From assembly GCF_964355755.1 (NCBI RefSeq), contig NC_092675.1, positions 26,198,912 to 26,262,911 on the forward strand: DNA of 64,000 nucleotides. The letters run 5' to 3'. How positions within the stretch are numbered: position 1 is the stretch's first letter; each line of letters starts with the position of its first letter. The notes beneath the pieces were generated by a model. That model was not told the origin of the DNA and made no database searches. It saw only the letters and a program-made list of their open reading frames with translations. Of this stretch, positions 188 to 64,000 are shown piece by piece. This DNA is from Antedon mediterranea (lineage: Eukaryota > Animalia > Echinodermata). Made by a program: the position numbers and the translations under genes.

Positions 188-3100
188 AATGCAATTTCAA
201 TAGACATGGTTGGAATTGTGAAAATCGCTGTACCTCACAAAACAATAAATATGCATGTAGATACTATCAGTTCTGCTTACCTGATCCATATGGATGCAGC
301 TGTGTTACCGGTTACAAAGGATTGAAATGCAATACAGGTAAGACAATTGCCTTTATAAAATAATGTAAACAAAACACAAATCCATTTTTGTTATAGGCCT
401 AGTTGCGATTTAAAAAAATAATATTGCCTATATCAATGTTATACTTCGTGCCGTTTTCAGTATACTGCAATTTAACATTCAACATGTTTTCATTTTTATA
501 GTTTTAAAAGTATTTATAAAGTTGTTTTTTAAAATCGATTCATTGATGATTTTACATTATTTTACAGGATGTTCATCGGATACATTTGGTGCAGACTGTG
601 CTCAAACTTGTCATTGTAAACAAGGTGACTGTGATCGATATACAGGAATATGCACTAACTCATCTTGTGCATTTCCATGGACGGGATCTAACTGTCAAAG
701 TAAGATTATGACAAATGTACTAACATATCCTAATTTAGACGGTAAAAGAATACTATTTTAATTTGAAAAAAACATTGAGATGTGTTAAATAAATTTGAAA
801 TCTTGACCCATATTTAATATATGTTTTTTCTCGGAGCATAACGCTGATGCATATAGGGATATTTGGTAATACAGCATCGGCTGACATGAAACGAAATTTG
901 TTACATTTGTATTTTGTAGAATGTCAATCTGGATTTTACGGAGAAAACTGTGATATTGAATGTCCATGTGAATGTTACAGATTGACTGGTAAATGTATAG
1001 AAGGCACGTGTGATTCTAATTGGCTTGAACCTGATTGTGAAGTTGGTAAGTCAAGTATTAAATGATTTCTTTGGTTAAATTAACCAAATAAAGTAATTTG
1101 TATTCAACCTTGTATTAGTTAGAATGATATATAAATTCAAATGAAGAAATATTGAGTTATATAAAGTTTATTCAGATGATGTGGTGACATGTTGTTGCGT
1201 ATTTGGTTACAATCTTTTTATTCCCTTATCTATTGGTCAAATGTAACTGTTTTGTATTTGTTAAGTGAGTAATAAAGAAAAAACCAAGTAGTGAGCTAAG
1301 AATAATAACATGTTGAATAAAGCATAAAAGTTTCATTTGTGTATGTATATAATAATAAAACTGATGTTCTCCGGAGGATTGTTGAAGTGTATCAACCGAA
1401 AATACTAGGTATAAGAACAGCAATTCTAAAATCTAGTATATTAATTTGAATAATAATTGCATGTTTATTCCACAGGAATCCTTAATACCACATTTACATC
1501 TGTAAATAATGGGCAACGGACAACTACATCCTGTTCGGTTTATCAGAATGATGCATACGATGTTCAAGCAATGATTATAGTGACAAATAATGACGTAACT
1601 GAGAACATTACAACAGTGATAGATACAAATAGAGATGGTCAGAATATAACACGTGCATTTTCTGTGATAGCTGATGCTGATTCGACATATACATGTGTAA
1701 TTTCACGAAAGGGTTACTCTGTTGAAAGTGACATCACAACAGAAATATTTCGTAAGTATATACATTATATAATATTCTTTATTATGTATAATTGAAATTG
1801 CTTGTATTTTGGTAATATATGATTATTTTTATATTAAGGATTACCTTTATATAATGGAAGTTTGACCATACTAAGCATTACAAGCTCCTCTATCACTATT
1901 GAATGGACAGCATGGAATAACAATACTGATGATGGAGATGGTCCAGTTGTTGGATACTTTTTATACCACACACAGATAAATATGACTAATTGGAAGAAGA
2001 CATTATACGAGAATTCTTTATCAGGCACTGTTAATGGGTTGCTATGGGATACAGAATACATTTTTAGTGTTTCAGCTGTTAGACCTGGTGAAGGAGGTGA
2101 AGGACCAGTTGGAAAAGGAACAGTCACAGCAAAAACGATTTGCGGAAGTAGGTCATAATGTTGATTACTTACCGTCTATCTAAATACCTTCAATTAGATC
2201 TAATCCAGCAGCAATTAATGATTACACTATACTGTAATATTATTCATTAAAACGATCAAACGATGTATATTTTACGTCTAAAATGCTGATTCGTTTCAGA
2301 TGGAAATACATGCAATTATGGAAGCATAATTGCTGGAACTTTGATAGCAGGCGTATTTATTGGTGTCTTATGCACTGTTATAGTAGCACAGGGGTAAGTT
2401 ATTAAAATATTATGTTATACTTCTTTATGTCGGAACTTATTTAAAAACTAACTAAAGTTATCTTGCACACAGGTTTATGATATTTTTCTAAGGTTATTCA
2501 TGAATATACCAATCAGCTAGTTACTTAGTTTAATGTGTTTTAGCTTCTTTTCCTTTTTTTCATTTTAAATCAGAATTAATGTATGTCTCTACTGCTTTAA
2601 TTGCGATCGACAGAGTCTTGTAATTAGTGGTTGGTTGGCATACTTATTGGCGGATTATTGTTTTATTCTTCTTATTTGGGTATTGTCGATGGGCTGTCAA
2701 GGTCTTCACTAAAATGGCATTAAACAAAAATGAATTAACTGTATTACTTTGTGCTTGTTTAAAGCAAACAAAGATGGCGGAAGAATATGAGTAAGTCTGA
2801 CGATGATTCCTCGAATGCTCAATATGTGTACATGAATAATGCAAGTAACGGTTCTTCTTCAAGGTAGTATACATTTCTATATTAATCTACTATTACAAAA
2901 TCCAAACATAAACATGCTTTACTTCTTATTGTTACATATAACATAATGAATAAGTCTACTTGTCAATCTGAAATGCTTCTTTAGTAATTTGTGTACATTA
3001 AAACTGTAGACTGTAGAAAAAATATAATGTTAATTTAAAGTTATTGATGAAATTAACTTATTCTCTTATTTTTTTTAATGTTTTTTGTGCTATTCATTGC

Positions 3101-3667
3101 TATATAATCTGTATAAGCTGTACTTTTTTATAATGATGATAATAGCTACTACACCAATATTTTTCAATAGTTATCTATCACTGTATTTAATTAGTTTTGT
3201 GATGGCACCGTAATTGTTTTGTGGTTCGTTGAAAATTATAAGAATTCATACTAATATAATGTTCTGATTTCTTTTGTTTATTTATTTATTTATTTATTTA
3301 ATTTAAAAATAAGCAAACCATCAGTTAAGATTGTGAGTAAATATGATGAGAACGAGACAAATGAGCTACACGTTTACCAGGAATATGCAAATGAGGGTAA
3401 CAATGCAGAATATTCAACCTGGTAAGTATAACATAATAATCTATTTTATTACATTTAATTAATCTGATATGTATATTGCTAGGCTGTGAGAAATGTTTTT
3501 AAATACACAAGGACATTTTACATTAATTTAGTTTCTAATTTGTTTAGTATTATTCTATGATAGTGTGTGTCAAATGTATATATTTTGCCTTTCATTTCAT
3601 TTTCAGCGATTTCCACCCAAATCAAGAAGGTGTTGCATTACCTGAGGAATCTGCTTATGTAAATTAG
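188..3667 (+). CDS. G1: kinase-less TIE-like receptor, 5'-partial (EGF2-EGF3-EGF4-Ig3-FN3-TM-Tyr tail)
   Basis: Exons 188-337, 568-699, 920-1045, 1476-1751, 1839-2147, TM 2300-2393, tail 2765-2863, 3314-3421, 3607-3667. All are AG/GT flanked and in frame. TIE signature peptides FCLPDPYGCSC, GDGPV and RPGEGGEG are present. TM reads IIAGTLIAGVFIGVLCTVIV. The protein ends ...EESAYVN*. Confidence 0.88.
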
Positions 3668-26919: not shown

Positions 26920-29900
26920 ATGCTTGTTAGTGTTACAATCTTGCTTCAATGTATTTGTTGCTGCCTGGGTAAGTTAGATCATAGAGATAGATCCAAACGA
27001 CTAAGAAGAAGGATGCAGATTAAACAAATTACAAAAATACGATAATCTGTTTATTTTTCAATAAATGTCAATCGATAATTTATGTTTTTCATGATTATTC
27101 AATTAAAAAAATTTCATTTTAATGATTTTATAATGTACCGGTGCATTTTCATATCACACACGTTAGCTTAGTTTATTCATAATAACAAACATCGCCTTTT
27201 TACTCACTATCATCTATCACAAAGTTAATAAAATTAATAAAGAATATTTATTTATACCAATAGTATATTGTATCTTTTAGGAAAAGAAGGGTATATAACA
27301 GTCTTGAATATATATCCACAAAGCAACGATAATCAAGTGTACCAATGTTACGTTCCTACCGTGTTCACTGGTTATAATTTAAGCTACGGGAGATCATTTG
27401 CAGTAGAGAATATTGAAAGTGTAAATGAAATGTCCTGGAATGTGCCAGGCGATAAGGTGCACGAAAGATATGTCGTAGTTGATGATGTAGGCATGGGAGT
27501 ATATTATTGCCAGATAGCAGACAATGAAATCACTACAATTGTTCAAACTACTAAAATAAGAGATGATGGTAAGGCAATAATGTTTATAATTTCTTTTACT
27601 TACGACTGTAAAACCACCCGATTCTGCTACTGTCCACAGGTGCTATCTGTAAAACTATAGCAAGTTATACACGTTGCTGTCTGCTATAAATGCTGTACTT
27701 TTAACACACGGTACACTGTCTGTAGCACAGTGTGTGTTGACAATTTACAATGATGTACAACCATAGGCAGGTTTTCGTACTGCCATGCAAGAATGGATAG
27801 GTGTTTTCCGCCGCTTTTAGGCCTTCTAGTCAATTATTGTTATTATTATACGAATTACGTAATTAGTCTAGTAGCTCATCTACCTTTTTAGCAGGGCATA
27901 ATGAATATTGTAGCTAGGCTAGGCCTACTAGTCTAGCGGGAAATCAACCAATTATTTGGTTGGATACGAGTTTAGGGTAGGAGGTTAAGTACGAGTTGGC
28001 ATGGGTACGAGTCGACCAGGGGTGAATCGACCAGAGTACACCCGGCCGCCCTACTAGAGCATAGGCTACAGGCCTGCAGGAATGGGAAATCTGTCCTAGC
28101 TATAGGCATAGGTCTACATTGGGACGCCCAAAAAAGCCATCCTATGAGCATAAAAAGGCCTCGTAGAGCCAGAAATGTTAACATATACTACACATATAGT
28201 ACGTCTACCATTTATTATAGTTCCATGGTACTACGGATCACTACTATCTAGGTCTAGTAGGCTAGGGTAGGGTTCCAGTAATTTCGGTCGCGTTTTTTCC
28301 GGAGGGCATGTGAGAGGTGAGGTAGGTTAGCCCAGCTAAGCTAAACTAACATGTAAGTAGTATTCTACCATGGGATGAGAACGAGTCGGCATGGGGGTAC
28401 GGGTTGATCTTTATCCGTATTCTAGGGTGCTGGTCAATCCGTAACGTACCCATGTCAACTCGTACCAAACTTGGAAAACTCGTACCCAAATAATTGGTCA
28501 ACTCGTACCAATAGCTTTATAGCTTTATTGATAGCTGGGTTCAAATCTAGGTTGGGACGGTTTTTTCTCATTCTAAAACAGATTTCCTTATAATAATAAA
28601 ATAATATCGACCTATGAATTTAACTGTAATATTGTATTGTATACATAATATTAGTAGTAATAGTAATTCCCATTGCATTTATTATTATAATATATTTTAC
28701 GGTTACCCCTTAATTATACTATAGTATAACTTCCTTGTTATATTTTACAATATTTTCTTCATAATTCAACAATTTTTGTTCACAGCTAATTATCAAACTG
28801 AATCATCACACACCAAATCACATGAAATCTCTAGTGTATTTCTCCAAGCTAATCCAGCTACATGGTATTGCCTTGAGGCTAAACTACACTGTATACTGGG
28901 CACTACCATCATTCCTGGCCCGTCAACCTGGATCACATTATGGTCCAACACAGTCGTGTACTACTGATTCCAAATAGTGAATTACATCCTGTGGTCAAGG
29001 ATTTATTTGCACTTATGCTTATTTCCTCCAACATACAGAGTACGTAGGGCTTTTAATTTGCTTTTATACCTGTTAATTAAAAAATCGTTTATGCCTATTG
29101 TTGCATAAAGATCAAATTTAGACTGTAAATACTGGGATGATCACCCTAAATTTTCTTTTTCATTTAACAATTTTATATTTCACAGCCAGAAAAAAGCATA
29201 CAGGTTTTTTTTTATTCATAACTGTTGAATTGCATCCCAATACATGGTACCTATTGGTATTATATCTATAATAATAAAGTACTCTCTTATAAATAGATGT
29301 ATCTCTCCAAACTACTCCAACTACCTAATCTAATAATAGTACTATTAGCATACTACCTGTACACTTTGTAGACAAGAAATAAGTTGTATCCACCTAGAGG
29401 ACTTATGTTAGTACTGTACAGTCGATCGTCCTCTCACTGGTCTGGTCAACATATTCTACGCCTAGATTATTACAGTAATTAAAGTACATTATTACAGAGA
29501 TTTTTTTTAAAAATAATATAATTTAATATTATGTTCATATTATTTTATTATATCATAGAGATTTTCAAAAACATAGTTTGGTAACATTTAGTTTCTGTTT
29601 TAGACCTTTAATATTTGGAAATAACCTATAATAATTATAAAACATTCTTGTTTTCAATGCCATTATGCGGTTAAAAACAAGTACAGCAGCATGCATATGT
29701 AGATAGAGTACACCTATATATTGTGAGAACATAATTTCAATAATTTCTTTGTTAGTTATCAACCTAGGGGTTAAATTATTAGGAAAACATTGGTTTATTT
29801 TTTTTATGTGTACAGAAATTTGTTCTTCTAGCCTCAGATCATTCCTGAAGTTAGACATAAATCACATAAATTAGTATTAAGTAATGAATATTAGATGAAA

Positions 29901-32900
29901 TACAGTACAAATACATGTTTCAGGAGGATACTTTATGTTAAAGGTGATAATTAGTTTAAATGTTACACCAATGAAATTTATTCAATTACCAGGTTGAAGT
30001 AGTCTTGTGGAAACACTACTATGTACTCATGTAGAACACAGTCAGTTCTACCAAGGTTAGAGGTGGGTGCCAACATTTGAGATAAGTGGAAACATGACCT
30101 TTTCAATAGTAAATTCATTACCAGCATTATAAATAAAATGTTAAAAAGATGAGAATGCAAGTAAATATTAGATTCATAGTCCTCATTATGCACAATGGTT
30201 TTCTACTATCACATTATTAAAATATAAAACAATCATATAGCCATTAATGAATTTACATGGAGGTCTATCCAAATAAATTTAAATAAAAAGGTCATAATAT
30301 GTCTTTGTCTCCAGTTCGTGGAAAATGAACAAAAAATATTCAAAATATCCTGCCAGTTTGCGTTCAGTACAACCTGCTTAGTTTTTAATACGATTACTGC
30401 TTTCTATACACTAAACTTTGATTTCTGCAAAAAAAAAAAAAATCTCTGTAATAATGTACTTTTTAATTACTGTAATAATCTAGGCATAGATTATGTTGAC
30501 CAGGCCAGTGAGAGGACGATCGACTGTACAGTACTACCATAAGTCCTCTAGGTGGATACAACTTATTTCTTGTCTACAAAGTGTACAGTAGTATGCTATT
30601 AGTACTATTATTAGATTAGGTAGTTGAGTAGTTTGGAGAGATACATCTATGTATAAGAGAGTACTTTATATTTATAGATATAATACCAATAGGTACCATG
30701 TATTGGGATGCAATTCAACAGTTATGAATAAAAAAAACTCTGTATGCTTTTTTCTGGCTGTGAAATATAAAATTGTTAAATGAAAAAGAAAATTTAGGGT
30801 GATCATCCCAGTATTTACAGTCTAAATTTGATCTTTATGCAACATTAGGCATAAACGATTTTTTAATTAACAGGTATAAAAGCAAATTAAAAGCCCTACG
30901 TACTCTGTATGTTGGAGGAAATAAGCATAAGTGCAAATAAATCCTTGACCACAGGATGTAATTCACTATTTGGAATCAGTAGTACACGACTGTGTTGGAC
31001 CATAATGTGGTCCAGGTTGACGGGCCAGGAATGATGGTAGTACCCAGTATACAGTGTAGTTTAGCCTCAAGGCAATACCATGTAGCTGGATTAGCTTGGA
31101 GAAATACACTAGAGATTTCATGAGATTTGGTGTGTGATGATTCAGTTTGATAATTAGCTGTGAAAAAAAATTGTTGAATTATGAAGAAAATATTGTAAAA
31201 TATAACAAGGAAGTTATACTATAGTATAATTAAGGGGTAACCGTAAACTCGTATCCAACCAAATAATTGGTTGATTTCCCGCTAGACTAGTAGGCCTAGC
31301 CTAGCTACAATATTCATTATGCCCTGCTAAAAAGGTAGATGAGCTACTAGACTAACGTAATTCGTATAATAATAACAATAATTGACTAGAAAGTCTAAAA
31401 GCGGCGTAAAACACCTATCCATTCTTGCATGGAAGTACGAAAACCTGCCTATGGTTGTACATCATTGTAAATTGTCAACACACACTGTGCTACAGACCGT
31501 GTACCGTGTGTTGAAAGTACAGCATTTATAGCAGACAGCAACGTGTATAACTTGCTATAGTTTTACAGATAGCACCTGTGGACAGTAGCAGAATCGGGTG
31601 GTAAAACAGTAATAATTATTTATTTAAAAACTGCTTGATTGTAAAGTTAATCATATTAAAATGTAATACTACTTTATTTTTTTTCAAAATAGCCATAATA
31701 ACGCCTGACAATTCTAAAAATACAGTAACTGTAAATGTTGGAGATGACGTCACAATTAGATTCTACACCGATTTCAACAATACTTTAGTGTGGAGGAAAG
31801 ATGGGTCTACTCCATTAAAGATTGGAACGGAAAAAAGCATGACCTTTAACCCAGTAGAGACCAGTGATGCTGGAGTTTACGAAATGCACCAGAGTGGTAC
31901 CCGAGAAGATCGTATGCATTCGTTTATCAAGTTGATTGTACGAGGTCAATAATCGCAAAAAATATAAAATAATAAAATGTGATCAGCACTTTTCACGAAT
32001 AAACATGTTTATATTATTTATATAAGAAAGTAAAATAAAATGAATTCAGATTTTTAAAAATAAGCGATATTTTATTATACATCAGGCCTATCCTAAATAA
32101 AGCCGTATAATAATAATAAATAAGTCAACATTAGGAATATTAGGCATTAGAGCTATACTTTTATAAAAAAGTAACGATTACCCGATGAATATTTCGGCCT
32201 AAATACATTTAAAAAAAAACCTCAGTTTTAATGACGATTTAAAAACCTACTAGGTCTAAGCAGGGATCTTCCTGGTCTAATGATCACAAATTTTGATTTC
32301 AAACTTTCCAGACTGAAGTTATGATGACTTGCTTTTTCTGTACTATTTTAGAGTGTCCTAATCACAAATGGGATCCACCTGACTGCACTGGTGACTGTGA
32401 ATACTGCTATAATGGAGGTATATGTGATGACAAAACTGGATTATGTATTTGTGCACCTGGATTTAAGGGAGCGACGTGTGAAATCGGTAAAAAGCATTTT
32501 AAAGTAAACATTCAATTCTCTGCTCTTCTATTATTATAGAAATAGTACCTTTAACGTATACTCAATAGCCTATAGGTTATTCATTCATTCAATCTTCTAT
32601 TTCGGAATCTCTAGTCCATAAAAAGTAAATTATGTATACATTTTTAAAAACCTGACTAATTACTACAAAACGAAGTGCTCTCAACCTGACCCTCTCATTG
32701 AATTTATCAACACAGACAACAGATGCATATGTTATTTTTTATGTATGCAGTTTGAGAAACAGGCAATAGTTTCTTGTTTATAGACAGGGACAACAACGAG
32801 TGCAGTAAACACCATATTATTGTCATTGATAAATTAAAAAGGGCTCAATACAGTATATGACATGGAAATAGATGTATAGTGTAAATAGTGTGGTATGAAT

Positions 32901-35900
32901 TAGGCCTTTTTTAGAATCTAAAAGCTACTTGTTAATCATATTAATGCAATACCATTGATTGTAGTATTTAATAATAATTATATGGCCAGGTTTTATTATT
33001 TATTAGCAAATAATACATTACACCTTACACCTTCCTTACGTAGAATGCGGAGGGAATAAACATGGTTGGAATTGTGAAAACATTTGTTCCAGTAAACTCG
33101 ATCTTAATAGGTGTAGATATTTTCAGTTTTGTTTACCTGATCCATATGGATGCAGCTGTGTTACCGGTTACAAAGGATTGAAATGCGATACAGGTAGAAA
33201 CAATCTTAAATTTACAAGACAATATTATTTTAAAATATAGTATAATGTATATTATTCGTTGCTATTTTAAGTACATTAATGGAAATCTACCACGTTTTAC
33301 TCCAAATTTGTTATTTCGATTTATAAAAAATACTTACACTTAACAGAATGCACACCAGGTACATTTGGTGCAGACTGTGCTCAAACTTGTCATTGTAAAC
33401 AAGGTGGTTGTGATCGATATACAGGAATATGCACTGACACTCAAGACTCGTCTTGTGCGTACCCATGGATGGGATCTAACTGCCAAAGTAAGACAGATTA
33501 AATAGGCATAAGCATTTGTAACAATTAGTTGTTTAAGATAGTAAAACTACCAGATTAGTTTGGATTTTTAACTTTATACACAGGCTTTCTCTGGGGTTCT
33601 TTTGCTAAATTCCATAGAAAAAAAATGTTTCTGTTCATTTTACCAACAGCAAACAAGCAACACCTAGTAGACCTATTATATTATAATATGTTTAAATCTG
33701 CTCTCAAAACTCACCTTTTTTCATCATTTCACTCTTTCTCTGCGATCTCGTTTCATATTAGAGGCCTACGTTACTTTCCAATTTTGTAGAGCGTTAACAT
33801 AAGTACACGGGAAACTATAGTTTTCAGTGATTTGTTGTTTGTTTTGTGTTTAGTTAAATTTATCAAATCAAGTAATTAGTAATCATTTAATTACGGAGAA
33901 GAATTATTCAAATTTTGTTCAATCGAAGATAGATAAATGGTAATGATAAATGAATTTGAATTTCACAAACTATTTTATTTTAAGTTAATAAATAAAATAT
34001 TTTATTTAACCAAGTTTAAATATAACAACAATAGTTGTATCTTTATTTACACAGGAATCCTCAATACAACATTTATATCAGCAAATAACGGCCATAGTAC
34101 AACTGCATCCTGTTCATTTTATTATGCTGATGCGTACAAAATTGAAGCAATTATTATGGTGATAAATGATGACATCACAGAAAATATCACAACACCGTTG
34201 GAAACAAAACGAGATGATCAAAATATATTGACACATACATTTTCTGTGATAGCTGATTATGATTCAGTATACATATGTGTAACTTTGCAAGGGGGTGTAT
34301 CAACCCAGAGTGTTATCTTCTCAGAAATATTTCGTAAGTAGATCAAACAAGGCCATATACATGGCTGCAGTCGCGTGCTCAAGTTAGTGTTTACCGACAC
34401 ACCGACCGACTGACCGACCAACCGACACAGTGAGCTGTAGAGTCGCGTTGCACGTGACTAAACATGCTTGAGTAGGCTTCAATATATATAGTAATATAAA
34501 AGGATTGAAAGAATAATCATTTTTTTCTTAAAAGGTTTACCTGTATATAACGATAGTCTAACGATACTTGACGTTTCAAGCTCCTTTATCGCCATTGAAT
34601 GGATGGCATGGAACAACACTACTGATGATGGAGATGGTCCAGTTGTTGGATACTTTTTATACCACAAACTGAGCAATACAAATGATTGGAAGAAGACATT
34701 TTATGAGAATTCTTTATCTGGCAATGTTAGTGAGTTGATGTGGGATACAGAATACACTTTTGGTGTTTCTGCTGTGAGACCTGGTGAAGGAGGAGAAGGG
34801 AAAATTGGAAACAAAGGACTCACAGCTAAAACTCTATGCGGAAGTAGGCCTATAATTAATTGATTACATCTCTTATTACTTATGATAATAAAAAGAACAT
34901 TCTATGTCGTTATTTTATAAAATGATGTACACATAATTCTACTGTAATACTATATATTCTTCTAATCTTGAATCGTACAATATTGAGGACTTTTGTTTCC
35001 ACGCGTTTAAGTCAAACATTTTTATGCGCACGCTCAGAAACATACATGAGAGTTATATTTATTTTCTTACATAATAGGCCTACACAGATTTACAGTATAA
35101 ACTTATCGTAGTTGTTTTTTTACAATACAGTATGCTAGGCATACTTTATGATTGATTAGGGCATACAATATTATTATTTTACCTTTTAAAAATACTAATC
35201 ACTAATAATTTAAACTAATCAATTTCACTGATAAAAGGCCTATTTACATATAAATCACATAGGCCTAATGATAATTATTTTACAGGGCCTTCTCCAGTTC
35301 AGAACGTGAAACACAGAGTTTTAACAACTGAATCTGAAAGTGTAGAAGTTACATGGATAGTAAGTAGGCCAATTATAACAATCTTCATTTTTAACGACAT
35401 TATCATGTCGTCTGTTAACATGACCACTACTTTGTTATACTTTTTTTACAATAGGCCCTACAGTTTAAAATGAATATATTACAAACTCTGGTATTTACCG
35501 TTTGAATAAAATGTGTAATAATATATACATGTTTATATAATATATACATATTCTAACATTTATTTTGCAATATCATTCATCAATTAGAATAAAAATATAT
35601 GTTGATCTTTTCAAGGGAATAGTCGATGTCCAATCATTAAAATGTTTCAGTAAAACATTTGTCTACAACGTTTACCTAAAGGTGGCCAACAATGAAGGGT
35701 ATCGTGAGGAGGTTTACCAGACTCATAGCAATCTACTTACTATCGATAATATTGCATTTTCTGACAGCTATGATATTTTAGTAACTGTGTCGAATAAGGA
35801 CAGCGAGAGTATATCTGTTAAGAGTTTAGCAGAACTAACAAATGGTAGGTAAAATAAAAACTTAAAGCTTAGTTTGTTAAATAACAATATTTTATAATCT

Positions 35901-37738
35901 TGGCATTTTTGTAATTGATTGTTTGTTATATAACGAGTTCAGTATACTAAAATGTATTCATTTCAGAATGTGAAAATACATGTAATTCTGGTGGCATAGT
36001 TGGTGGTACCTTGTTTGCAGGTGTTTGTATCGGTGTATTAAGTACTATTATGATATTGCTGGGGTAAGCTAGTAGAATTTTGAAAGTAATAAATATTGTT
36101 ATTGTTATGTTGTGTCCGTTGGTTATTTATCTTAATATATTATAAAATGAAATTACTTTTTAATAATAAAACTAATATACGTTTGCTTCTGATTCCAACA
36201 TGTTGGTCTAAATAAATCAGTTTTAATTGTCTGTGGATGAGATTTTTGTAACCTGTTTTATGTAGTAGAAAAAAAAGGAGAGTGACATGACTTCAGTTTC
36301 CGTTACAAATATAAAATATGAAATTAAAAGGTCTGTTTTTATTATAGTAGTAAATGTTTTGTTTCTGTTTTAAAGCAAACAACGTATACGTACAAATATG
36401 TGTAGGTCAGACTCTGGTGATGATCCACATGCTCAACACCAATCTGGTAATATTAATAATGATTCTTCATCAAGGTATCTATCAATTAATATTTATCTGT
36501 TATACTAAATGTTTAAAAAATATGAGTTTACTCTAGTTCTGTTTGGTGCTACTTTTATAATATTTAATTAATTGAAGTTATTACTTACTTAATTTTCTCG
36601 TATGCTTTTCTTTCAATTGAATTTGTCACATTAGGCTAAATAAGCTACTAATGAATTCAATGAAGTTTATTAACCCAAAATAAACAATAAGTACAATACT
36701 GAAACTCTGATAATAGAAAGCACAGTACAATTATCCTCAGTAATTGCAGTCAGTTATTTTGCCATGAGTTTAGTATTACGATACATACAAAAACAAAAAA
36801 AAAACATATAAATTTAATTTTCAAAAATTATTTTTTTTTTCCAAAGTGGTATAAATCAAGAAAGACCGAATTTAAGTAAGTCTGACGTTAAAACGTCAAA
36901 TGAGCTACATGTTTATTACGATTATGAAAATGAGGGTAACAATATAGAATATTCAACATGGTAAGTATAAATATGTGCATTGATCTAATTTATTTCACCA
37001 GAACACTAACCCAGTAAACATTTAACAAGTTTTGTAAAAACGAATTACAGTTATGTAGGTTTCAAAATAGTATGCTAATAGTATTATAATGTACTGCTAC
37101 AAAATACTAAAAATAGCACTTCAATAATATAACTGTAACTGCATATGTAGTCACTAGTAATGCTCCAGCAAGTTTATAGAGAACTTTGTATTTAGTTAAA
37201 GTTTCTTTTGTTTAATTGCCTAATTTGCATATTATTTTATCCAGCAGTTGTTTACTGCATTGAGCAGTCAGTTTCTTTTGTTCTTAGTTCTACTATAAGT
37301 TAGTTGTAGCTGTGCACCCAGTAAGGGCAGATCATGTTTTGTTACCAGCACACCATTTTATTTACCTGGAATTTACTTACATTCAGTGAATGCATTTATA
37401 TTTATGTTGCTTTAGATGTATCCTTATGTTGCTTTGGATTTATATTTATGTTGCTTTTCGATTGCCAGTATTCATATAAGGAAGATTCGATTAAAATCAT
37501 CCTGTTATACATAAAGAAGATTCAATTACAATCATTCTGTGTATCCTTTATTTATGTTCTGCGTAAACAAACTGCTCGCCAGCCAGCTACACTCGCCTAA
37601 TTGTTGTCGCAATTAAAATAACAATAATAGTGGGACTTTTAATGTTTCTATTATTTCATTTTCAGCGATAACCCAACTGAAGAAAGTGTTTATGCATTAC
37701 CTGATGATGATCCTGAAGAATCATTTTATGTAAATTAA
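26920..37738 (+). CDS. G4: kinase-less TIE-like receptor lacking EGF4 (SP-Ig1-Ig2-EGF1-3-Ig3-FN3-FN3-TM-Tyr tail), about 762 aa
   Basis: Exons 26920-26968, 27281-27568, 31693-31944, 32352-32486, 33044-33193, 33347-33487, 34055-34333, 34535-34843, 35286-35359, 35616-35844, TM 35967-36063, 36376-36474, 36847-36960, 37666-37738. The total is 2289 nt in frame. The protein ends SVYALPDDDPEESFYVN*. Confidence 0.88.
27605..31610. mobile_element. About 4-kb foldback element with long inverted arms, in the G4 Ig1-Ig2 intron
   Basis: 27605-27974 is the reverse complement of 31244-31610, and 28696-29508 is the reverse complement of about 30435-31247, with scattered mismatches. 27975-28695, which contains GGTACGAGTTG/CAACTCGTACC sub-repeats, is present only in the left arm. 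The central spacer is about 0.9 kb. Confidence 0.88.
34346..34463. mobile_element. Short HINE/DINE-like element with ACCG microsatellite
   Basis: AACAAGGCCATATACATGGCTGCAGTCGCGTGCTCAAGTTAGTGTTTACCGAC(ACCG)n...GTCGCGTTGCACGTGACTAAA. A second copy lies at about 49110-49198. Confidence 0.65.
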
Positions 37739-44000: not shown

Positions 44001-44100
44001 CAAAAACGCAATGCGGAAGTAATGTTTGTTACTTACTTACAATGATTAAAGCAAAAATGTATTCTTTAATTGAAACATATAATAATTCTTTAAAATATCT

Positions 44101-49477: not shown

Positions 49478-52400
49478 ATGATTGTTACAGCTCTAATCTT
49501 CATCCAAGTTGTTGTTTTCTGTCTGGGTAAGTTATTTCACAAGAAGGCAGGTTATACAAATTAAATTATTATTTTAATTAAAAATTCAACATACTGTAAC
49601 ACTGACAAAACCCAGAATATCCCACGTTAAGGAACTTCATGTCAAAATTAGCAAAACTAAACTACGTCGATTTCCGCTGGATTTCCTTGGGGCTACATAT
49701 TATATTATTTATATTTTCAACAAATTTAAATTATGATTTTCTACTTTTTTCCACTACAGGAAATGATGGATATATAACAGTTTTGAATTTGTCTCCTCAA
49801 AACAGCGGTAACAATAGGTACCAATGTTACATTCCTAGTACATTCACTAGTTATAATTTGAGTTACGGTAGATCATTTGGAGTCAGGAGTTGGGAAAGTT
49901 TAAATGAAACATCGTGGGACGTGCCAAGTGATATTCAGAATGGAAGGTATGTTACAGATCCAGTAGGCATGGGAGTATATTATTGCAAGATAGTGAAAGA
50001 TGGCGCCACCACAATCGTTCAAACTTCAAAAATCAGAGAAAATGGTAAGGCAATATTAATACTTATACTATCTATTTGTTATTCTTCGCTACGTTATGAT
50101 ATTGGATTATGTTGTTGGCGGCTGAATATAAAAACACTTGTTATTCTACAGTATTAATTTTAAAATGTAACTCTCTGTTGCAATAATCATTTGCAACATC
50201 TCCCTTCCTTCGTAGCTAGGTGTCAATTACCGACAGTATTAAAATACGATGTTTCATTTTTGTTTTGTTCCTTGGGATTGGTTAGAAGTGTAAGATGTTT
50301 CATTTTCTTTATACAGATAGACACAACTTTAAATCAATCTCTCAATCATTATTATTGGCAAAATAGAATTTTGCAAAATAATACTTGCTTTGTTTGTATG
50401 TTAGCATGATAGCGCCTAAAATTTTGAAGTTATCGTTCTGAATTTTTCGGTGTAAATAGGTACTGTATATACTTTATATACTTTATATATAAATTGGTTT
50501 ATTAACTTTAGAAATAGAAAAAACCGAATTTTTTTCTCATATTTTGGCAAGCACTTCACTCAGTTTCTGAGAGTGTTTTTCATCTCAATTAGTCATTTTC
50601 ATAACTTATATAAGATTATTATTATTATGGAAAGTTTGATCTTAACAATGGTGGTTGTAAAAAGTAACATTTCATGCATTTAACTGTATTGTGGTGGTAT
50701 CTAATTGTTTATAAAAACAGCCGTAATAACGCCAGCAGGTTCTAAAAACACAGTGACTGTAAATGTTGAAGATGACGTCACAATTAGATTCAACACATAC
50801 TTGAACAGTGATTTAGTGTGGAGGAAAAATGACTCTACTGAACTAAAGATTGGGACGGAAAAAAGCATGACCTTTAACCCAGTAGAGACCAGTGATGCTG
50901 GCGTTTACGAGATGTATCAAGATGGTAACCGGAACGACCGCAGGCATGCGTTTATCAAGTTGATTGTCCGAGGTAAAATGTAGTTAAATAAAAAAAAAAT
51001 TATTATGAATAAATAGGTCTAACAAACATCATTATCCCATACATAAATGTTATTTATAGGCCTACATTGAAAATTCTACGTAGTAAATATTTTTAAAAAC
51101 CAAATAATGAAAATAGGCTAGACCTGAAGGATTTTTATTTGTTAAATATAATATAAAATTACTTTATTATATCCTATTTCGACCATATAAAAACTAAATA
51201 AGCCCTATGAATAACAAAAAAAAAGTAGAAATTACTAAGCAGTAAGGGTGACACCATTATGACAAAAGTTACTGTTTGTCGTATCAGTCTATTTTGCCTC
51301 CCCAATAGTAATAAAATTAGTCAACTTGGCTAAGACTTTCTAGTACAGTGATTTGACTTTGATTTGTCATTCTTTTGTTTTTCATCACAAAGTCGTAATT
51401 TAGTTTGTGCTATTCTTAGAATGTCCACGTCACAAATGGGCTCCACCTGACTGCACTGGTGACTGTGAATACTGCTATAATGGAGGTGTATGTGATGACA
51501 AAACAGGATTATGTATCTGTGCACCTGGATTTAAAGGAGCCACGTGTGAAACTGGTAAGACCTTGGTATTTATGATAAATAATAAATGTTGATAGTGAGG
51601 TGGATCAAAGCATATTGATCGAAACGTCAAGAAACAGTTTATTTTTTCAGAACTAATATACGTGGTGTACCGCAAACTTTATATCAACATTTGATTTCGC
51701 AGTGCAAACCTTCAAACAATATAAATAATAAACATTATTATTATTATGTTCATTTTATAAAATGTAATGGCAAATTTTAACCTTAATACTCCAAGCATTT
51801 TTTCTATAACCAATGTAAAGACATTTCTACATAAGCTTAAGTAGGCCTACTACTACCTTTTTAAAAAAACGTATGTAAATAATATTAGCCTCATAAAATC
51901 TGTTTATTGAATAGCCAAACAAGCAGCAAGGACAATTTCGGCAGCAAAAATGCAACAAAAAGATCTTGAATAATTAGAATAGACAATGATAATTATACGT
52001 ATTTATACTATTATCAATTCCTTACAGCAGAACAAAATACGTTATGTACATTATGATATGATTTTATGAAATTAATTAATTCTATTTCCATCCTTTATTG
52101 TACTGTAATTACCAAATAAAACACAATATTGAAAAATATTAATACATTTCGGTTGTATACTTAGAATGTGGTGCCAATAGACATGGTTGGAATTGTGAAA
52201 ATCGTTGTTGCTTTTAATAACCCCGCACATGCATGTAGTAACAAACAATTTTGCCTACCTGATCCATATGGTTGTACATGTGTCAGCGGCTTTAAAGGCA
52301 TATCATGCCAAACCGGTAAAAACTGCCTTTTTTTATATTTTTCGTTTAAGGAATATCAAATTAAATTATAGTTAATATACGGTGGCATTTAATGAAATAC

Positions 52401-55400
52401 AATATCGTTCTTGCTTGTCTACTTTTACGTATTTTCTTATACAAACGTACATTACAATACTTTAATTATCTACATCAATATTTATTTAAAGTTAATCTAC
52501 TATTCTATTTGTCTATTAACATTATCACACAACAATTATAATTAAAAAAACTCAAAATAATTATATAGTGATTCTTTTAAATGCTTATATTACAGAATGT
52601 TCACCGGGTACATTTGGTGCAGATTGTGCTCAAACATGTCATTGTAAACGGGAGTGTTGTGATAGATATACAGGCCGATGCACTAGCATCGAAGACTCGT
52701 CTTGTGCATTCCCATGGACGGGATCTAACTGTCAAAGTAAGATTGTCAATAATATAGATATCGCATAATTACGATTTCTGTGTTTTTTTTTAATAAATTG
52801 ATGTTTCTCTCTAGGTTCCACACGTATGTGTTTTAAAAATCATTCCAAGATTTTGGTATTATCTCAAACATAAAGTACAGCGCCCAAATAATTAAAATAA
52901 TCAAATTGTACATTACTTACAATACTTTGAAATGATTTAATTAGAATGCCAGCCTCAACTTTACGGAGAAAACTGTGATATGGAATGCAAAGCTTGCAAC
53001 GAATGTCACAGACTGACTGGAAAATGCATCACTTGTGCACCGAATTATCTTGAACCCGACTGTGAAATTGGTAAGATTTTGTCAGCAGACATTGTGAACT
53101 TGTCAGACAGTAATATTTTAATTGATTTATAACCATGCAATGATATACTTTTGTAATATCTAAAGGAATCATCAATACCACATTTACATCAGCAAATAAC
53201 GGCCAGAGTACAACTTCAACATGTAAAGTCTACCAAACCGGTGCTTATGAAGTTCAGACAATGATTATCATGATGAATAATGGCGTCACTGAAAACTTTA
53301 CAACATCGTTGGAAGCAAAGCAAGATGGTCAGAATATAATTATATATACATTTTCTGTGACAGCTGATGTTGATTCGACATACAAGTGTGTAATCTCGCA
53401 TGAAGGTGTTCTAGCTCAGAGTGTAATCATACCAGAAATAATGGGTTTGTCAGATTTATTCTGTCTTTATTCATAGTACCGAATAAAAGATTAGCAATTG
53501 TTTTACATTCTTATTATTTTTATTATTTTTTTACTAATTTTACTGATATCTGACTATTTGCTTTAACAGTGTATGACCATACTACATATTTTAAGAGATA
53601 GTTTTTACTTTAGGAAATTTACATGTCTAAACCAGTAAATAAACTAGATATCATCTTATTCATTTGTTAAATTATCTATTACAGAAATGAGTTTTACTAA
53701 CATTTATAAATGTATTGATTATGTTTTAATAAACAAACTAATGAGAGGGAAGTCTTCATTTGACGTTCGATCTTTGTTTGATCAGAATTATGATGACCTC
53801 ATAAATATCGAATCATTACTTCCCTCTCAGTTTAGCATTTTTTAAATAATCTTATTATATTTTATACTATACAAACTTCAAACTGTTTATACTTTTTGAA
53901 ATCAATATAGATTAATAACTTTTTGTAAAAATTTCAACCTACACTTATAAATACTGCTCATTTTCATTTTTACATTTCTGTATTTTTACAAGAGCATTAA
54001 TACGAATCGTTTGATATAGCTTAATCATTATACATTTTAAGGTTATCTACATTGTATACATTTAAGTAATAATGTTTTCTTCAAAAGGTTTACCTTTCTA
54101 CACCGGAAGTCTGGCTATACTTAATATCACACGTTCCTCCATTTCAATTGAGTGGACGGCATGGAAAACTAATAGACCCACTGACGACAGAGATGGTCCA
54201 GTTGTTGGATACTTTTTATATCACAAACTTATAAATAATGAAGATTGGAAGAAAGAATATTTGAACGTGTCGTCAGGCACTGTTACTGGACTGAAGTGGG
54301 ATACAGAGTACTCGTTTGCTGTTTCAGCTGTGAGAGCTGGTGAAGGAGGCGAAGGACCAATTGGGGAAAAAGAACTCCTAACAAAAACTCTATGCGGAAG
54401 TAAATATATGTTGTTACTATAGGCCTACAGCAATGATAGCAATTAATTTGGTCTTTGATTTAAACAGTTCCTAGAGTTAGTTCAAAGGCTGCATTTTTAT
54501 TACCGTTAAATTTATAAATCTATAAGTATTTATATAACAATGTAGGGTGGTAATAGCATATTCAAAATCTGGTATACGTTTCTGAAAAAATAAATTTGGG
54601 TGACTTAGTACGTAGTCATTTTGTTGCCAATACTCTATGCTTTTTTCCATGATTGTATTTTCACAGTTCCTTTACCAGTTCAGACCGTAGAACACCAGCT
54701 TTTAACAAACGGAAATGTCAAAGTTTCATGGAGAGTATGTGTAAACAGGAATATTATTTTAAGGCCTTTAGCTCTACACAATCCTATAAAAACAAATAAC
54801 CTTTAAATAAAATTAAATAAATATTTTCAAAATAAATGTTAAACTTGGAGTTCATTTTTCTGTTTTAATTTTAGAGAAACCTGGATGTCGAGTCATTGAA
54901 ATGTTCCAGTAATACATTAATCTATAACATTTACCTAAAGGTGATCAACAATAAAGGATATCGAGAGGATGTTTACCACACCATTAAGAATCAACTTACT
55001 ATCGATAATATTGGAGTTGCAGACAGTTACGTCATTTATGTCACGATCTCTAATAAAGACAGTGAGAGTATTTCTGTTAGGAGTTCAATTGAACAAGACA
55101 TTGGTAGGTGGATTAGGTTAAATTCTACAGTGTTACTTTATTTTATAAGCAGACGCCTCAGGCAGGTAGAAATTCCACTATCAACAATTGCAATAATTGT
55201 CTCTATGTCAAACTTCAATCGATTTTATTTCAGGAAGTGCTAATTCATCCATTTCCGTTGCGATAATTGGTGGCGCTGTTGCAGCTGGTGTGTTTATTGG
55301 TATTGTATTTACCATTATGATAACACAATGGTAAGTTCAAGTTCAAATTATGTTGTAAACTATTATGTTAGGTTGTTATGTTTATACCGATTACAAGTAG

Positions 55401-56495
55401 ACCTAAATGAATGTAAAGTAGTCCAATGATATTTCTTAATATTCATTCGTCAGTGGAAAATTACTTCTATTTATTGTCATTTGCATATAAGATATACTTA
55501 CATACAATTAAATTAACTAAAACGATAGATATGTGACATTGATATAAAACAAACATTTAATTGGCGTTTCTCACACGAATATAACAAAGTTTTGTCTTTT
55601 TTTAAACATTTTGTCTAAATCTAAGTCAAATTCACGTATTATTATCAACAATATGATCTATAAAATATAGCTTAAGTTCCCATTATAGAAAACCAATTTG
55701 TTATGCGTCATTATAAGTTCATTATCAAGTTTATGAACGTTAATTTTACTTTGTGTTTGTTTCAAAGTAAACAAAAACTACGTAAGAATGTAACCAAGCA
55801 TGATAACCATGAGTCGAATGGTCAAAATGTTTACAAGAACTATGCAACCAGTGATGAACACGTTTACCAAGATTTTGAATCAAATGAGAAGGTTTACCAG
55901 AATTCTGCAACAACTAACGAATCCGTATCACGGTAAATAATAAATGTGCTTTGTTATTTTGTCAAATGCATTATTTAACAGATAGTTAGTCGGAGTTAAT
56001 GCATAATTATAATAGCATCATTTTTTATTTTGTTTTTTTGTATCATTGTGTTTAAATAATGGTTGATTTTCCCCTCATTGAATATTTGTTGTACATGCTA
56101 ATGAATTTTACATTGATGTAGATCATTTCTTTCTTATCATTTCAATTATCTCGTAATGATATTATACTTGCTGGTTTCAGCAGAGCAAAACTACACATAA
56201 ATGCGAGTAAATCTGCCGATGAAATGTCAGTCGAGTTCCACGTTTATCAAAATTATGAAATTAAGGATAACGATTCAGGAAATCCCTCATGGTAAGAAAT
56301 TAATTTGACACAATGGTAATACAAAACAACAGCTTCTAGAGACAGTAACAATTTCTAGCTACTGAATTAATCCAAATGATATATTCAAAATTATTGTTTA
56401 CATTAAGGTAATATTTGTTGTTTTATATTTTCAGCAATTTTGAAAATGGTGACGAACCACGTGATCATTCTTACGAATCTGTTGTTTTGAATTAG
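49478..56495 (+). pseudogene. G6: TIE-like receptor gene with a +1 frameshift in the EGF2 exon and an expanded Tyr tail
   Basis: Exons 49478-49526, 49760-50044, 50721-50972, 51420-51554, 52165-52315 (151 nt versus 150, TAA at 52215), 52596-52736, 52945-53070, 53166-53444, 54088-54399, 54667-54734, 54875-55103, TM 55234-55330, 55768-55932, 56181-56291, 56435-56495. The sum without EGF2 (2310 nt) is in frame. The single-base lesion could be a sequencing error. Confidence 0.72.
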
Positions 56496-61800: not shown

Positions 61801-64000
61801 GAGTAAATCTAATGAGACCGTAACAAACAAGCCAGACGCGTATCAAGATTATAAAAAGGGTAAAGAATCCGATTACTCTTCGAGGTAAATGTCATTTTAA
61901 ATGTAAACTTTTTCTAATTATTAATAACATTTGTTATTTTACCAAATCAACAATGATGATAATAAAAAAAAATTAGACATTAAATATTTAATATTGAAAA
62001 AAAAATGAATAAAACATACATTGGTTTCAAATTGTTTGTTATTATATTATTTCAACGTTCACATGGATGTAATGTTTACTTACAATATTTATTTCATTTC
62101 AGGAAAAACCCAAATCAAGAAAGTATTTACGAATTACCTGATGAAAATGCTTATGATTATAGTTATGAAAATTAGTTGAAAGTAAAAATCATAGGATATC
62201 GCGGGTGTATAATCTAGGACATTGAGCTTCAAATAGCAACGTTTTAATTATCTAACACAGTTAGCTGAATTTCAACCGCTCAACTGGCTCGCTTTAAAGT
62301 AAACACTTAGGCCTAGCGAGAAGGAAACTGATAGAAAGCCTGGAAAAAAATACACTTTTCAAAATCAGATGCAAACCTTTCAAAGTATACTCGAATTACA
62401 TTAAGTAGAATAAACACTATAACAACGTGCACATAGCTTATAGTTCCTGGTAAATTACCGGCTGTAAAAGAAAGTTTGTTTCCTACCTTACACTGATACG
62501 AATACATTTTAAGTCCCATTCACTACGTTTTTAGATCTAATTTAAGGTCACAAACTACATTTAATGTAAAATAAATACCATATGGTCCTACTTGAGATAA
62601 CTTTTTTCGTCTTTAAATGGTTAAATATGCAAAAAATAAGGCGATTCTAATCATTTTAGCGGCCCGCTATAAATCCCAACATACATTGTAGGCGGATAGA
62701 TATTTTTGTTTTTCTTCTGTAATTCACTCACTTTTCGATCGATCGTGAGGCCCAATATACAAATGGAAGACTCCTTAGCGAAAATATTGGTTTTCCCCAA
62801 GTTGTATCATCGGAGTCTGGCAAAACAGAAAGATAATTAATGCAGCAACTATACAACGTCAGGATAGGCATAATATGCTAGCGTACCGATGTTCGTACGT
62901 TACCCATGTTTACCAGCTAGGCCTACAAAACTAAGCCTAGTTAGGCTAGGCCTAAAAACTGCCAACGCCGAGAGGTCATTCACCGTGACCTACTTAGGTA
63001 GTTAGTGCATTGTTTCTCTCTTCTTTATCATAATTTACCATAAAACGTACATTTCAGACAAGGAATGGTTTAATGTTTTAAAGTAATATATATGCAGTCT
63101 TTTTACATTTACAAAACGTCGACACAAGTGTAGGGAATGGGTCTTTAAATTCTTTTTAAACAGTTTTTGTATGGACATATCACCAATACTGTATTTTGTT
63201 TGAGTTATTTTACTTTATCCTGTTTTTTTTTTCAATGTTATTTTTATATAATAGGCCTCTATGTGCCATATTGAATATTATAATCAAACATATTATTGTA
63301 ACATAAAACTGTATTGAAAGTAATAATACTATTAAAAATATATATGCCTAGCTGAATATGAATCATTTGAGTATTAATATCCAATGTGCAAGGGAAATAT
63401 CCGTTAAACTTCCCTTGAAAAAAAGGCCGACATGCCAGACAGTGTAAACAACCTTCTTTATTGTGATTTTTTCCTGTTGAAAAGAAACCACGGCACGATA
63501 AACACTATATACTGTATTGTATACATTTCAATTGAATGATTCAACCAAAAACTATTAGGTGCTACTCATTCCATGTTTTAGACGTAAGTCGGAATAAGGT
63601 TTTGATTTCGATCTGACGCTAAACTCGGTAAGTAGGCCTAAGCCTAACTGACATTTTTAAACATAATATACCGTATCTTCACAGATTTTCATTAGTATCA
63701 ACCTTATAGTAATATAATTTATAAGGTTTTAAATAATTACGTATATTAATTTACGCTCGCTTCGCTCGCGTACCATCTAGGTCGTGCCCACAGATGGTTC
63801 TCGAATACATAATAATTTCAGCGTTAAAAAACTGGCGATTTCAAATGTACGTACCGCAGGACAATAATACATGTCGTGTACAGGAACGAATAAATAGACA
63901 CTGTGATTTATGTACTCAACTAAAATTAGCACCCTATTACTTCCGAAAGAGAAACTTGTCACAAAATAAGACCAATTGTTTAAGTCAAATTTAAACAAAC

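What the first reader, a model, noticed from the sequence alone, without database searches (positions are those of the whole stretch)
188..62175. Tandem cluster of kinase-less TIE-ectodomain receptors with tyrosine-motif tails: candidate diversified invertebrate immune receptor family
Seen: at least 7 co-oriented paralogs, each ending TM + 2-3 small exons + stop, with no room for kinase exons before the next paralog's signal exon. Established: Ig-Ig-EGF3-Ig-FN3 with the motifs LIVR.C...KWG, FCLPDPYGCSC, GDGP and GEGGEG is the TIE1/TIE2 (TEK) ectodomain, and vertebrate TIEs are low-copy RTKs with a kinase. Inference: an RTK ectodomain has been joined to an adaptor-style phosphotyrosine docking tail and amplified by birth-and-death. 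This is organisationally like KIR/LILR/CD300/NITR or Hydractinia Alr clusters, but built on a different scaffold. Automated annotation would probably label these Tie-1-like kinases and miss this. I cannot confirm from the sequence that the family is undescribed.
Basis: partly seen in the sequence, partly recalled or inferred. Interest (0 to 1): 0.92.

Follow-up and report, generated by a model that had tools for sequence, protein, structure and literature searches.

The report
Feather-star enzyme-less TIE receptor array
A feather star carries a tandem array of receptor genes that have the outer part of the blood-vessel receptor TIE but a short tyrosine-rich tail instead of an enzyme; their nearest enzyme-bearing relatives are phosphatases with almost the same outer part, so the two kinds likely act as an on/off pair, likely in immune recognition.

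Summary
Observation confirmed, interpretation revised. The window (crinoid; matches Antedon mediterranea RefSeq proteins) holds seven co-oriented units: three intact (P1-P3), one cut by the window edge, two with one frameshifted exon, one relic. They end TM + 2-3 small exons + stop (the relic's TM donor is broken); no kinase or phosphatase is encoded; one TM-to-tail splice is seen in a putative RNA run. The TIE ectodomain is real, but the genes are not offshoots of the TIE kinase (45-50% identity; AU p 0.022). They sit in a crinoid clade with tandem-PTP receptor phosphatases (up to 94% identity in Ig2), probably in the same array, and paralogs are recombinant mosaics. Tails have conserved YxN and [IVL]YxxP sites but no ITIM, ITAM or charged TM residue, so this is not KIR/LILR-like signalling. 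Other echinoderms and amphioxus have separate expansions of the same module on kinases, phosphatases and tails. Best reading: docking-tail half of a receptor/phosphatase pair. Immune function is inferred only: no expression, polymorphism or positive-selection evidence. Closest published analogue: Biomphalaria LG5R/SudRes1 clusters.

The parts
188..3667 (+). P0: 3' part of a paralog (EGF2-EGF4, Ig3, FN3, TM 2300-2393, tail exons 2765-2863, 3314-3421, 3607-3667); mosaic, P1-like in EGFs and P2-like in TM and tail
   Evidence: ectodomain and TM equal RefSeq P0007
6412..13917 (+). P1: intact gene, SP-Ig1-Ig2-EGF1-4-Ig3-FN3-TM-three tail exons; second EGF2 exon at 9813-9962
   Evidence: equals RefSeq P0006/P0211
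7926..8177 (+). P1 Ig2 exon, 94% identical in protein to the receptor phosphatase P0010
16088..24223 (+). P2: intact gene with two FN3 domains; second FN3 (22646-22880) is 71% identical to phosphatase P0010 but 32-38% to P3-P5
23127..23708 (+). P2 TM exon and first tail exon; a contig of putative RNA run X5 joins 23217 to 23609
   Evidence: table 5c
26920..37738 (+). P3: intact gene, lacks EGF4, two FN3; 4-kb palindromic insertion in intron 2
   Evidence: equals RefSeq P0016
39803..46771 (+). P4: Ig2 exon (41550-41797) 4 nt short, frameshift; two tail exons
   Evidence: RefSeq P0133 starts inside Ig2
49478..56495 (+). P5: EGF2 exon (52165-52315) 1 nt long, frameshift; tail with internally repeated VYQ/KN motifs
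   Evidence: RefSeq splits it into P0002 and P0134
58058..62175 (+). P6: relic with signal exon, EGF4/Ig3 fragments, TM exon with broken donor, three tail exons

Best explanation
The window holds seven tandem feather-star genes or gene relics for enzyme-less receptors with a TIE-type outer part and a tyrosine-rich tail, whose closest enzyme-bearing relatives are receptor tyrosine phosphatases with nearly the same outer part; they likely act as the docking ('on') half of a paired, likely immune, recognition system whose 'off' half would be the phosphatase. Shown: architecture, absence of catalytic domains, shared clade and near-identical Ig2 with the phosphatases, recombination among paralogs, conserved tail tyrosines. 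Inferred: ligand binding at Ig1/Ig2 clusters the receptors (GxxxG in all seven TM helices); a cytoplasmic Src/Abl/Syk-type kinase phosphorylates the disordered tail; YxN sites recruit Grb2-type and [IVL]YxxP sites Crk/Nck-type SH2 adaptors (motif preferences recalled, not from a call), driving Ras/actin responses such as phagocytosis or encapsulation in coelomocytes; the phosphatase paralogs, seeing the same ligands, reverse or damp the signal; unequal crossover keeps shuffling outer parts between output types.
For: EGF2 hits only human TIE2 in the PDB (3 sequences, E 1.3e-8); the P1 model's top three fold matches are TIE2 ectodomains and residues 590-672 are low-confidence/disordered. 3 of 16 Ig1 relatives carry PTP domains, 0 of 16 a kinase; 0 of 28 crinoid relatives from three searches carry a kinase. 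Window genes fall in a 19-row crinoid clade (100/99) with phosphatases P0010, P0005, P0014; the TIE kinase clade (98/93) is separate; AU rejects tail forms + TIE kinases (p 0.022). Module identity of P1: 84% to P0010, 45-50% to TIE kinases; Ig2 alone 94%. P0010 and the tail forms have consecutive RefSeq numbers on one 31.7-Mb sequence. P0 is a P1/P2 mosaic (max chi-square 63, 0 of 2000 shuffles); 5 of 8 protein triplets show a mosaic signal at 14 of 2000 or less. Tail tyrosine columns are more conserved than others (0.88 vs 0.66, p 0.004); YxN 19 vs 7.2 expected, [IVL]YxxP 4 vs 0.19 (tails are not independent). Purifying selection in all ectodomain exons. TM-to-tail splice in run X5. Same pattern of lineage-specific expansion with mixed outputs in sea stars, sea urchins, sea cucumber and amphioxus. 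Snail clusters with the same mix of short-tail and tandem-PTP receptors are linked to schistosome resistance (PMC13712769 section 20; PMC12297450 passages).
Against: No tissue or challenge expression data; X5 is only guessed to be RNA and one junction was displayed. No ITIM, ITAM, ITSM or charged TM residue. No whole-domain positive selection (dN/dS 0.20-0.53). AU tests do not reject tail forms as one clade (p 0.16) or phosphatases as one clade (p 0.099), so repeated exchange between the two types is not proven by the tree; the triplet P1/P0010/P0 is borderline (105 of 2000) and 3 of 8 triplets are not significant. RefSeq models in this array can be chimeric (P0007 joins P0 to the P2 tail; P0005 fuses two genes), so ectodomain-to-phosphatase links outside the window rest on gene models. 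Physical linkage of the phosphatases is inferred from accession order, not seen. No ligand, kinase or SH2 partner was tested.
Confidence: 0.45

Rival explanations
1. Non-immune modulators: co-receptors or decoys that tune TIE-like or phosphatase signalling in development, arm regeneration or skeleton formation by binding the same ligands without an enzyme.
For: TIE scaffold has developmental roles in vertebrates; all ectodomain exons are under purifying selection; no classic immunoreceptor motifs; sea-urchin Tie1/2 is reported in axial organ and embryos as well as coelomocytes (PMC12113024 passages).
Against: Rapid gene turnover, relics, mosaics and separate expansions in each lineage are unusual for conserved developmental modulators; conserved tail tyrosines argue against a pure decoy.
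Confidence: 0.22
2. Stand-alone scavenger or engulfment receptors in the manner of MEGF10/Draper/SCARF/PEAR1, signalling through their own tails with no functional pairing to the phosphatases, which are merely neighbours by descent.
For: EGF-rich ectodomain, enzyme-less tyrosine tail; the snail analogues are classed as scavenger class F-like; tail forms may be one clade (AU p 0.16) and share one TM + first tail exon module.
Against: No NPxY and only 1 YxxL/I/V site in 7 tails against 4.7 expected; 94% Ig2 identity with a phosphatase paralog suggests recent exchange.
Confidence: 0.17
3. Self/non-self cell-adhesion or gamete/allorecognition molecules binding their own alleles, like Hydractinia Alr or Botryllus FF/FcoR.
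For: Ig/FN3 tandem array with intergenic recombination and tyrosine tails resembles the Botryllus FcoR description (PMC12582321 abstract and section 13).
Against: FcoR motifs (ITIM, hemITAM, YxxI/L/V cores) are missing; allelic polymorphism not measured; crinoids are solitary (own knowledge).
Confidence: 0.09
4. Largely neutral duplication debris of a phosphatase gene, with little function.
For: 3 of 7 units are damaged; duplicated partial exons and transposon insertions.
Against: dN/dS well below 1 in all ectodomain exons and TM; a distinct conserved TM + tail module not derived from the phosphatase juxtamembrane region; spliced junction seen.
Confidence: 0.07

Closest known systems
TIE1/TIE2 (TEK) receptor tyrosine kinases and sea-urchin SpTie1/2
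   Same: Ig-Ig-EGF-Ig-FN3 ectodomain, FCLPDPYGCSC EGF2, fold match.
   Different: No kinase; 3-4 EGF and 1-2 FN3; separate clade at 45-50% identity; multi-copy array.
Crinoid and other echinoderm receptor tyrosine phosphatases with a TIE-type ectodomain (RefSeq models P0010, P0005, P0014; annotated 'uncharacterized' or 'PTPRM/T/K-like')
   Same: Same ectodomain clade, 64-84% module identity, 94% in one Ig2; same chromosome-scale sequence.
   Different: Window genes have a different glycine-rich TM and a 70-110 aa tyrosine tail instead of two PTP domains.
Biomphalaria LG5R and SudRes1 single-pass receptor clusters (PMC13712769, PMC12297450)
   Same: [quoted passage not shown]
   Different: Their ectodomains are described as MEGF/galactose-binding, scavenger class F-like; the signature covers EGF repeats generally (own knowledge), so homology of the full TIE Ig-Ig-EGF unit is not shown; they have genetic links to parasite resistance, this array has none.
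Vertebrate paired receptors (KIR, LILR, CD300, NITR, Siglec pairs) and Botryllus FF/FcoR
   Same: Tandem array, birth and death, intergenic recombination, similar outer parts on different outputs.
   Different: No ITIM, ITAM, hemITAM or charged TM residue; the putative inhibitory partner carries its own phosphatase rather than recruiting SHP-1/2.
Transmembrane adaptors LAT/NTAL/TRIM and CD28-type YxN tails (recalled)
   Same: Disordered tail with several YxN sites, C-terminal YVN, cysteine in or just after the TM in most copies.
   Different: Large ligand-type ectodomain; no sequence homology tested or expected.

Membership tests
TIE receptor tyrosine kinases | Ig-Ig-EGF-Ig-FN3 ectodomain homologous to TIE2 | tested here: met
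   EGF and FN3 counts differ
TIE receptor tyrosine kinases | Cytoplasmic tyrosine kinase domain | tested here: not met
TIE receptor tyrosine kinases | Groups with the TIE kinase orthologue clade | tested here: not met
   (AU p 0.022)
TIE receptor tyrosine kinases | Binds angiopoietin-type ligands | not testable with these tools
   no binding assay
Receptor tyrosine phosphatases with TIE-type ectodomain | Tandem PTP domains | tested here: not met
   absent from the window; present in relatives P0010, P0005
Receptor tyrosine phosphatases with TIE-type ectodomain | Ectodomain in the same clade | tested here: met
   (100/99, 99/93, 97/90)
KIR/LILR/CD300/NITR-type paired receptors | Tandem array with birth and death and recombination | tested here: met
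KIR/LILR/CD300/NITR-type paired receptors | ITIM/ITSM in inhibitory members | tested here: not met
   0 of 7 tails
KIR/LILR/CD300/NITR-type paired receptors | Charged TM residue or ITAM in activating members | tested here: not met
   TM sequences; ITAM 0 of 7
KIR/LILR/CD300/NITR-type paired receptors | Outer domains homogenised between members of opposite output | tested here: inconclusive
   94% Ig2 identity and mosaic signal, but AU p 0.16 and 0.099
KIR/LILR/CD300/NITR-type paired receptors | Immune-cell expression and allelic/copy-number polymorphism | not testable with these tools
   runs served cover one DNA sample and one putative RNA sample as contigs
KIR/LILR/CD300/NITR-type paired receptors | Positive selection on ligand-binding domains | tested here: inconclusive
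   whole-exon dN/dS 0.20-0.53, Ig1 and Ig3 highest; no site model run
Botryllus FcoR | ITIM/hemITAM and YxxI/L/V core motifs | tested here: not met
   1 YxxL/I/V in 7 tails; definition from PMC12582321 section 13
Biomphalaria LG5R/SudRes1 clusters | Mix of short-tail and tandem-PTP single-pass receptors in one cluster | tested here: inconclusive
   same 31.7-Mb sequence and consecutive accessions; adjacency not seen in the window
Biomphalaria LG5R/SudRes1 clusters | MEGF/galactose-binding ectodomain | tested here: not met
   Ig/EGF/FN3 only
Biomphalaria LG5R/SudRes1 clusters | Genetic association with parasite resistance | not testable with these tools
   no population or infection data
LAT-type transmembrane adaptors | Disordered tail with several Grb2-type YxN sites | tested here: met
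LAT-type transmembrane adaptors | Very short ectodomain | tested here: not met
   550-680 aa ectodomain

The most novel reading that the evidence does not exclude
The TIE outer module is the shared sensor of an unrecognised paired-receptor system of echinoderms and amphioxus, rebuilt in each lineage, in which the same ligand-binding unit is swapped between kinase (writer), tandem phosphatase (eraser) and tyrosine-tail (scaffold) outputs; this crinoid array is its phosphatase-plus-scaffold form, and vertebrate TIE1/2 would be the low-copy survivor of a much larger immune-type family.
Probability: 0.3. Interest if true: 0.88.

Novelty: new variant of a known kind. Interest (0 to 1): 0.64.

Why it matters
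Crinoids are the earliest-branching living echinoderms and their immune receptors are barely described. A receptor array in which tail-only and phosphatase forms share an outer part gives a concrete, testable candidate for activating/inhibitory pairing without ITIMs. The same swap is visible in sea stars (kinase and phosphatase forms 90-95% identical in the TIE module), so model species such as Patiria and Lytechinus can test it. It also shows that many 'Tie-1-like / angiopoietin-1 receptor-like' hits in echinoderm coelomocyte transcriptomes may not be kinases at all.

Tried and rejected
No whole genome is held for this window, so array size and the position of the phosphatases were inferred from protein records. 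No RNA holder was listed; X5 was added by species label and is only guessed to be RNA. The two frameshifts (P4, P5) were not checked against reads, so assembly error or a single-haplotype lesion is not excluded; both exons are phase 1-1, so skipping them would keep the frame. The ESM Atlas look-up for the TM + tail gave no answer. Pfam finds nothing for Ig1, Ig3, the second FN3 or the tail. Profiles of the tail exons and TM hit only Antedon proteins among 210 relatives (one marginal Patiria TM hit, E 0.098) and nothing convincing among 103 further ones (one weak hit, E 0.015); the phosphatase juxtamembrane region has no match in the window, so 'tail = truncated phosphatase stump' was rejected for these genes. 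Read-through from a TM exon into a downstream kinase is rejected for P0-P5 within the window; beyond 64000 it was not testable. No crinoid TIE kinase was found in three word-based searches, which does not show it is absent. Ten paper searches found no description of this family or of TIE-ectodomain phosphatase/tail pairs in echinoderms; the library lacks most subscription papers, among them D'Aniello 2008 (not held) and the 2006 sea-urchin kinase/phosphatase surveys (recalled, not seen). PMC7494358 held none of my five terms. Three look-ups of earlier scan findings returned nothing. No complex prediction was sent.
Full report
What is there. The window is 30% GC animal DNA. Self-comparison shows seven repeating units on the + strand. 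I built exon models from AG/GT sites and reading phase. P1 (6412-13917), P2 (16088-24223) and P3 (26920-37738) give open frames of 743, 801 and 762 aa: signal peptide, Ig1, Ig2, three or four EGF exons, Ig3, one or two FN3, TM, three small tail exons, stop. P0 (188-3667) is the same from EGF2 on. P4 has an Ig2 exon 4 nt short and P5 an EGF2 exon 1 nt long; both shift the frame. P6 is a relic with a broken TM donor. These lesions were not checked against reads. Gaps between a stop and the next start are 1.6-2.7 kb; four kinase and two phosphatase domains from relatives gave no tblastn hit better than E 0.21, while the ectodomain control gave 59 hits.

Source and independent models. The best protein relatives are RefSeq models of the crinoid Antedon mediterranea; P0006/P0211 equal P1, P0016 equals P3, P0133 the 3' part of P4, P0002 and P0134 the two halves of P5, and P0007 joins the P0 ectodomain and TM to the P2 tail. 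So an independent pipeline ends these genes at the same stops and names them 'angiopoietin-1 receptor-like' or 'uncharacterized'. In a run guessed to be RNA (X5), one contig joins the TM exon to the first tail exon (23217 to 23609), and others cover sequence just past the P1 and P2 stops (most joints were not displayed). This supports transcription of at least one family member; it says nothing about tissue.

The ectodomain is TIE-type. The EGF2 exon matches only human TIE2 in the PDB (3 sequences, E 1.3e-8); FN3 matches TIE2 weakly among other FN3 proteins. The predicted P1 structure (pLDDT 80) has a TM helix at 565-588 and a low-confidence tail; its top three fold matches are TIE2 ectodomains (E 4e-34 to 4e-16, low global TM-scores of 0.34-0.38).

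The nearest enzymes are phosphatases. Of 16 Ig1 relatives, 3 carry PTP domains and none a kinase. P0010 is a complete SP-ectodomain-TM-PTP-PTP model with an intact HCSAGVGRTG first domain. From 210 proteins of three searches I cut the Ig2-EGF1-3 module (208 copies from 201 proteins), dropped 27 redundant vertebrate rows and 2 copies of window genes, and labelled outputs by Pfam and motifs. The 184-row quick tree groups by lineage, not by output: Antedon, Patiria, Apostichopus, echinoids and Branchiostoma each have their own expansion mixing kinase, phosphatase, tail, SAM or 7TM forms. In a careful 47-row tree the window genes lie in a 19-row crinoid clade (100/99) with P0010, P0005 and Anneissia P0014, apart from the clade of vertebrate, hemichordate and sea-urchin TIE kinases (98/93). 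On 23 rows, AU rejects tail forms plus TIE kinases (p 0.022) but rejects neither tail-form monophyly (p 0.16) nor phosphatase monophyly (p 0.099). P1 is 84% identical to P0010 over the module and 45-50% to TIE kinases. None of 28 crinoid relatives has a kinase, though the searches could miss one. P0010 and most tail forms carry consecutive accessions (XP_071952977-994) and P0005 follows two window genes in a second run (XP_071954248-253), all on one 31.7-Mb sequence; I infer a larger mixed array around the window.

Mosaics and selection. In DNA, P0 sides with P1 in EGF2-4 (47 vs 12 sites) and with P2 from Ig3 to the tail (36 vs 115); max chi-square 63, 0 of 2000 shuffles. P1 Ig2 is 94% identical to P0010 (next best 84%); the second FN3 of P2 is 71% identical to P0010 but 32-38% to P3-P5. 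Five of eight protein triplets show a mosaic signal; the most direct one (P1, P0010, P0) is borderline at 105 of 2000. Pooled Nei-Gojobori dN/dS is 0.20-0.53 for ectodomain exons, 0.51 for TM, 0.37, 0.68 and 0.99 for the tail exons: functional constraint, no whole-exon sign of positive selection; no site model was run.

The tail. Seven tails of 69-111 aa hold 51 tyrosines. Tyrosine columns are more conserved than others (0.88 vs 0.66, p 0.004). YxN occurs 19 times (7.2 in shuffles), [IVL]YxxP 4 times (0.19); ITIM, ITAM, ITSM and NPxY never; YxxL/I/V once (4.7 expected) (the tails are related, so shuffle counts overstate significance). Tail exons 1 and 2 are duplicates of each other, and the TM plus first tail exon is shared with other Antedon tail forms (P0004, P0009, P0012) but not with the phosphatases or non-Antedon proteins. 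All seven TM helices carry GVxxG and no charged residue. Other echinoderms have unrelated tyrosine tails on the same module (for example P0022, P0215, P0034, P0249, P0218), so the design arose repeatedly.

How it likely works. Shown: enzyme-less receptor, conserved docking-type tyrosines, phosphatase sisters with near-identical Ig2, recombination. Inferred from recalled SH2 and kinase preferences: ligand-driven clustering, phosphorylation by a cytoplasmic kinase, Grb2- and Crk/Nck-type recruitment; the phosphatase forms as the opposing arm. Ig2 as the ligand site is recalled from TIE2. Immune use is inferred from gene turnover and analogy. I put this at 0.45, against non-immune modulators 0.22, unpaired scavenger receptors 0.17, allorecognition/adhesion 0.09 and neutral debris 0.07.

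Comparison with print. PMC13712769 (section 20 read, plus passages) describes a Biomphalaria cluster of single-pass receptors, mostly with small tails and four with two PTP domains, under a schistosome-resistance peak; PMC12297450 (passages) describes MEGF phosphatases in SudRes1. PMC12582321 (abstract and section 13) describes Botryllus FcoR motifs, which these tails lack. PMC4898815 (passages) reports a single Tie kinase in most invertebrate deuterostomes with duplications in amphioxus or sea squirt. PMC12113024 (passages) lists SpTie1/2 in coelomocytes and axial organ; PMC11925454 (passages) lists a 'TIE1' among top genes of a holothurian coelomocyte cluster without saying whether it has a kinase. 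PMC8662651 (passages) gave nothing specific. No supplements were read; supplementary tables of echinoderm genome papers could list these families. Ten searches found no description of this family; key subscription papers were not available.

Verdict. Real, functional-looking and apparently undescribed as a family, but a variant of a known kind (fast-turnover receptor clusters with mixed outputs), and better described as the tail-bearing sister of TIE-ectodomain phosphatases than as a decapitated kinase. Interest 0.64.

Noticed in passing
window 27597-31618: 4-kb palindromic insertion in P3 intron 2, arms over 1.1 kb at 95-99% complementarity; foldback- or MITE-like element.
   Followed up: partly
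window 10495-10734, - strand: GIY-YIG-like fragment in a P1 intron (Pfam E 0.061, below cut-off); perhaps a Penelope-type retroelement relic.
   Followed up: partly
window 58453-58828: 64-bp unit repeated 5.9 times where relic P6 lacks Ig1 to EGF3.
   Followed up: partly
window 7714-7860, 9813-9962, 40945-41091, 44092-44331: Duplicated whole or partial exons inside genes; the second EGF2 exon of P1 is in frame with intact splice sites and could be an alternative exon.
   Followed up: partly
P0062/P0072 (Asterias amurensis), P0098/P0091 (Patiria miniata): Kinase and phosphatase receptor models with 95% and 90% identical TIE modules; chimeric models not excluded.
   Followed up: partly
P0030, P0089 (Apostichopus); P0053, P0130 (scorpion, spider); P0050, P0084 (amphioxus): The TIE module also sits on adhesion-GPCR, chelicerate phosphatase and SAM-tail receptors.
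   Followed up: no
P0013, P0001, P0132 (same chromosome-scale sequence): Array members with four or more tandem Ig3-FN3 repeats, suggesting stalk-length variation.
   Followed up: no
window 23217-23609 and P0007: The X5 junction and the RefSeq model both put a P0-type TM end on a P2-type tail; either mis-mapping between 90%-identical exons or a recombinant allele.
   Followed up: no
window 45620-46520 and 47890-48500: Higher-GC inserts in the last P4 intron and after P4, not identified.
   Followed up: no
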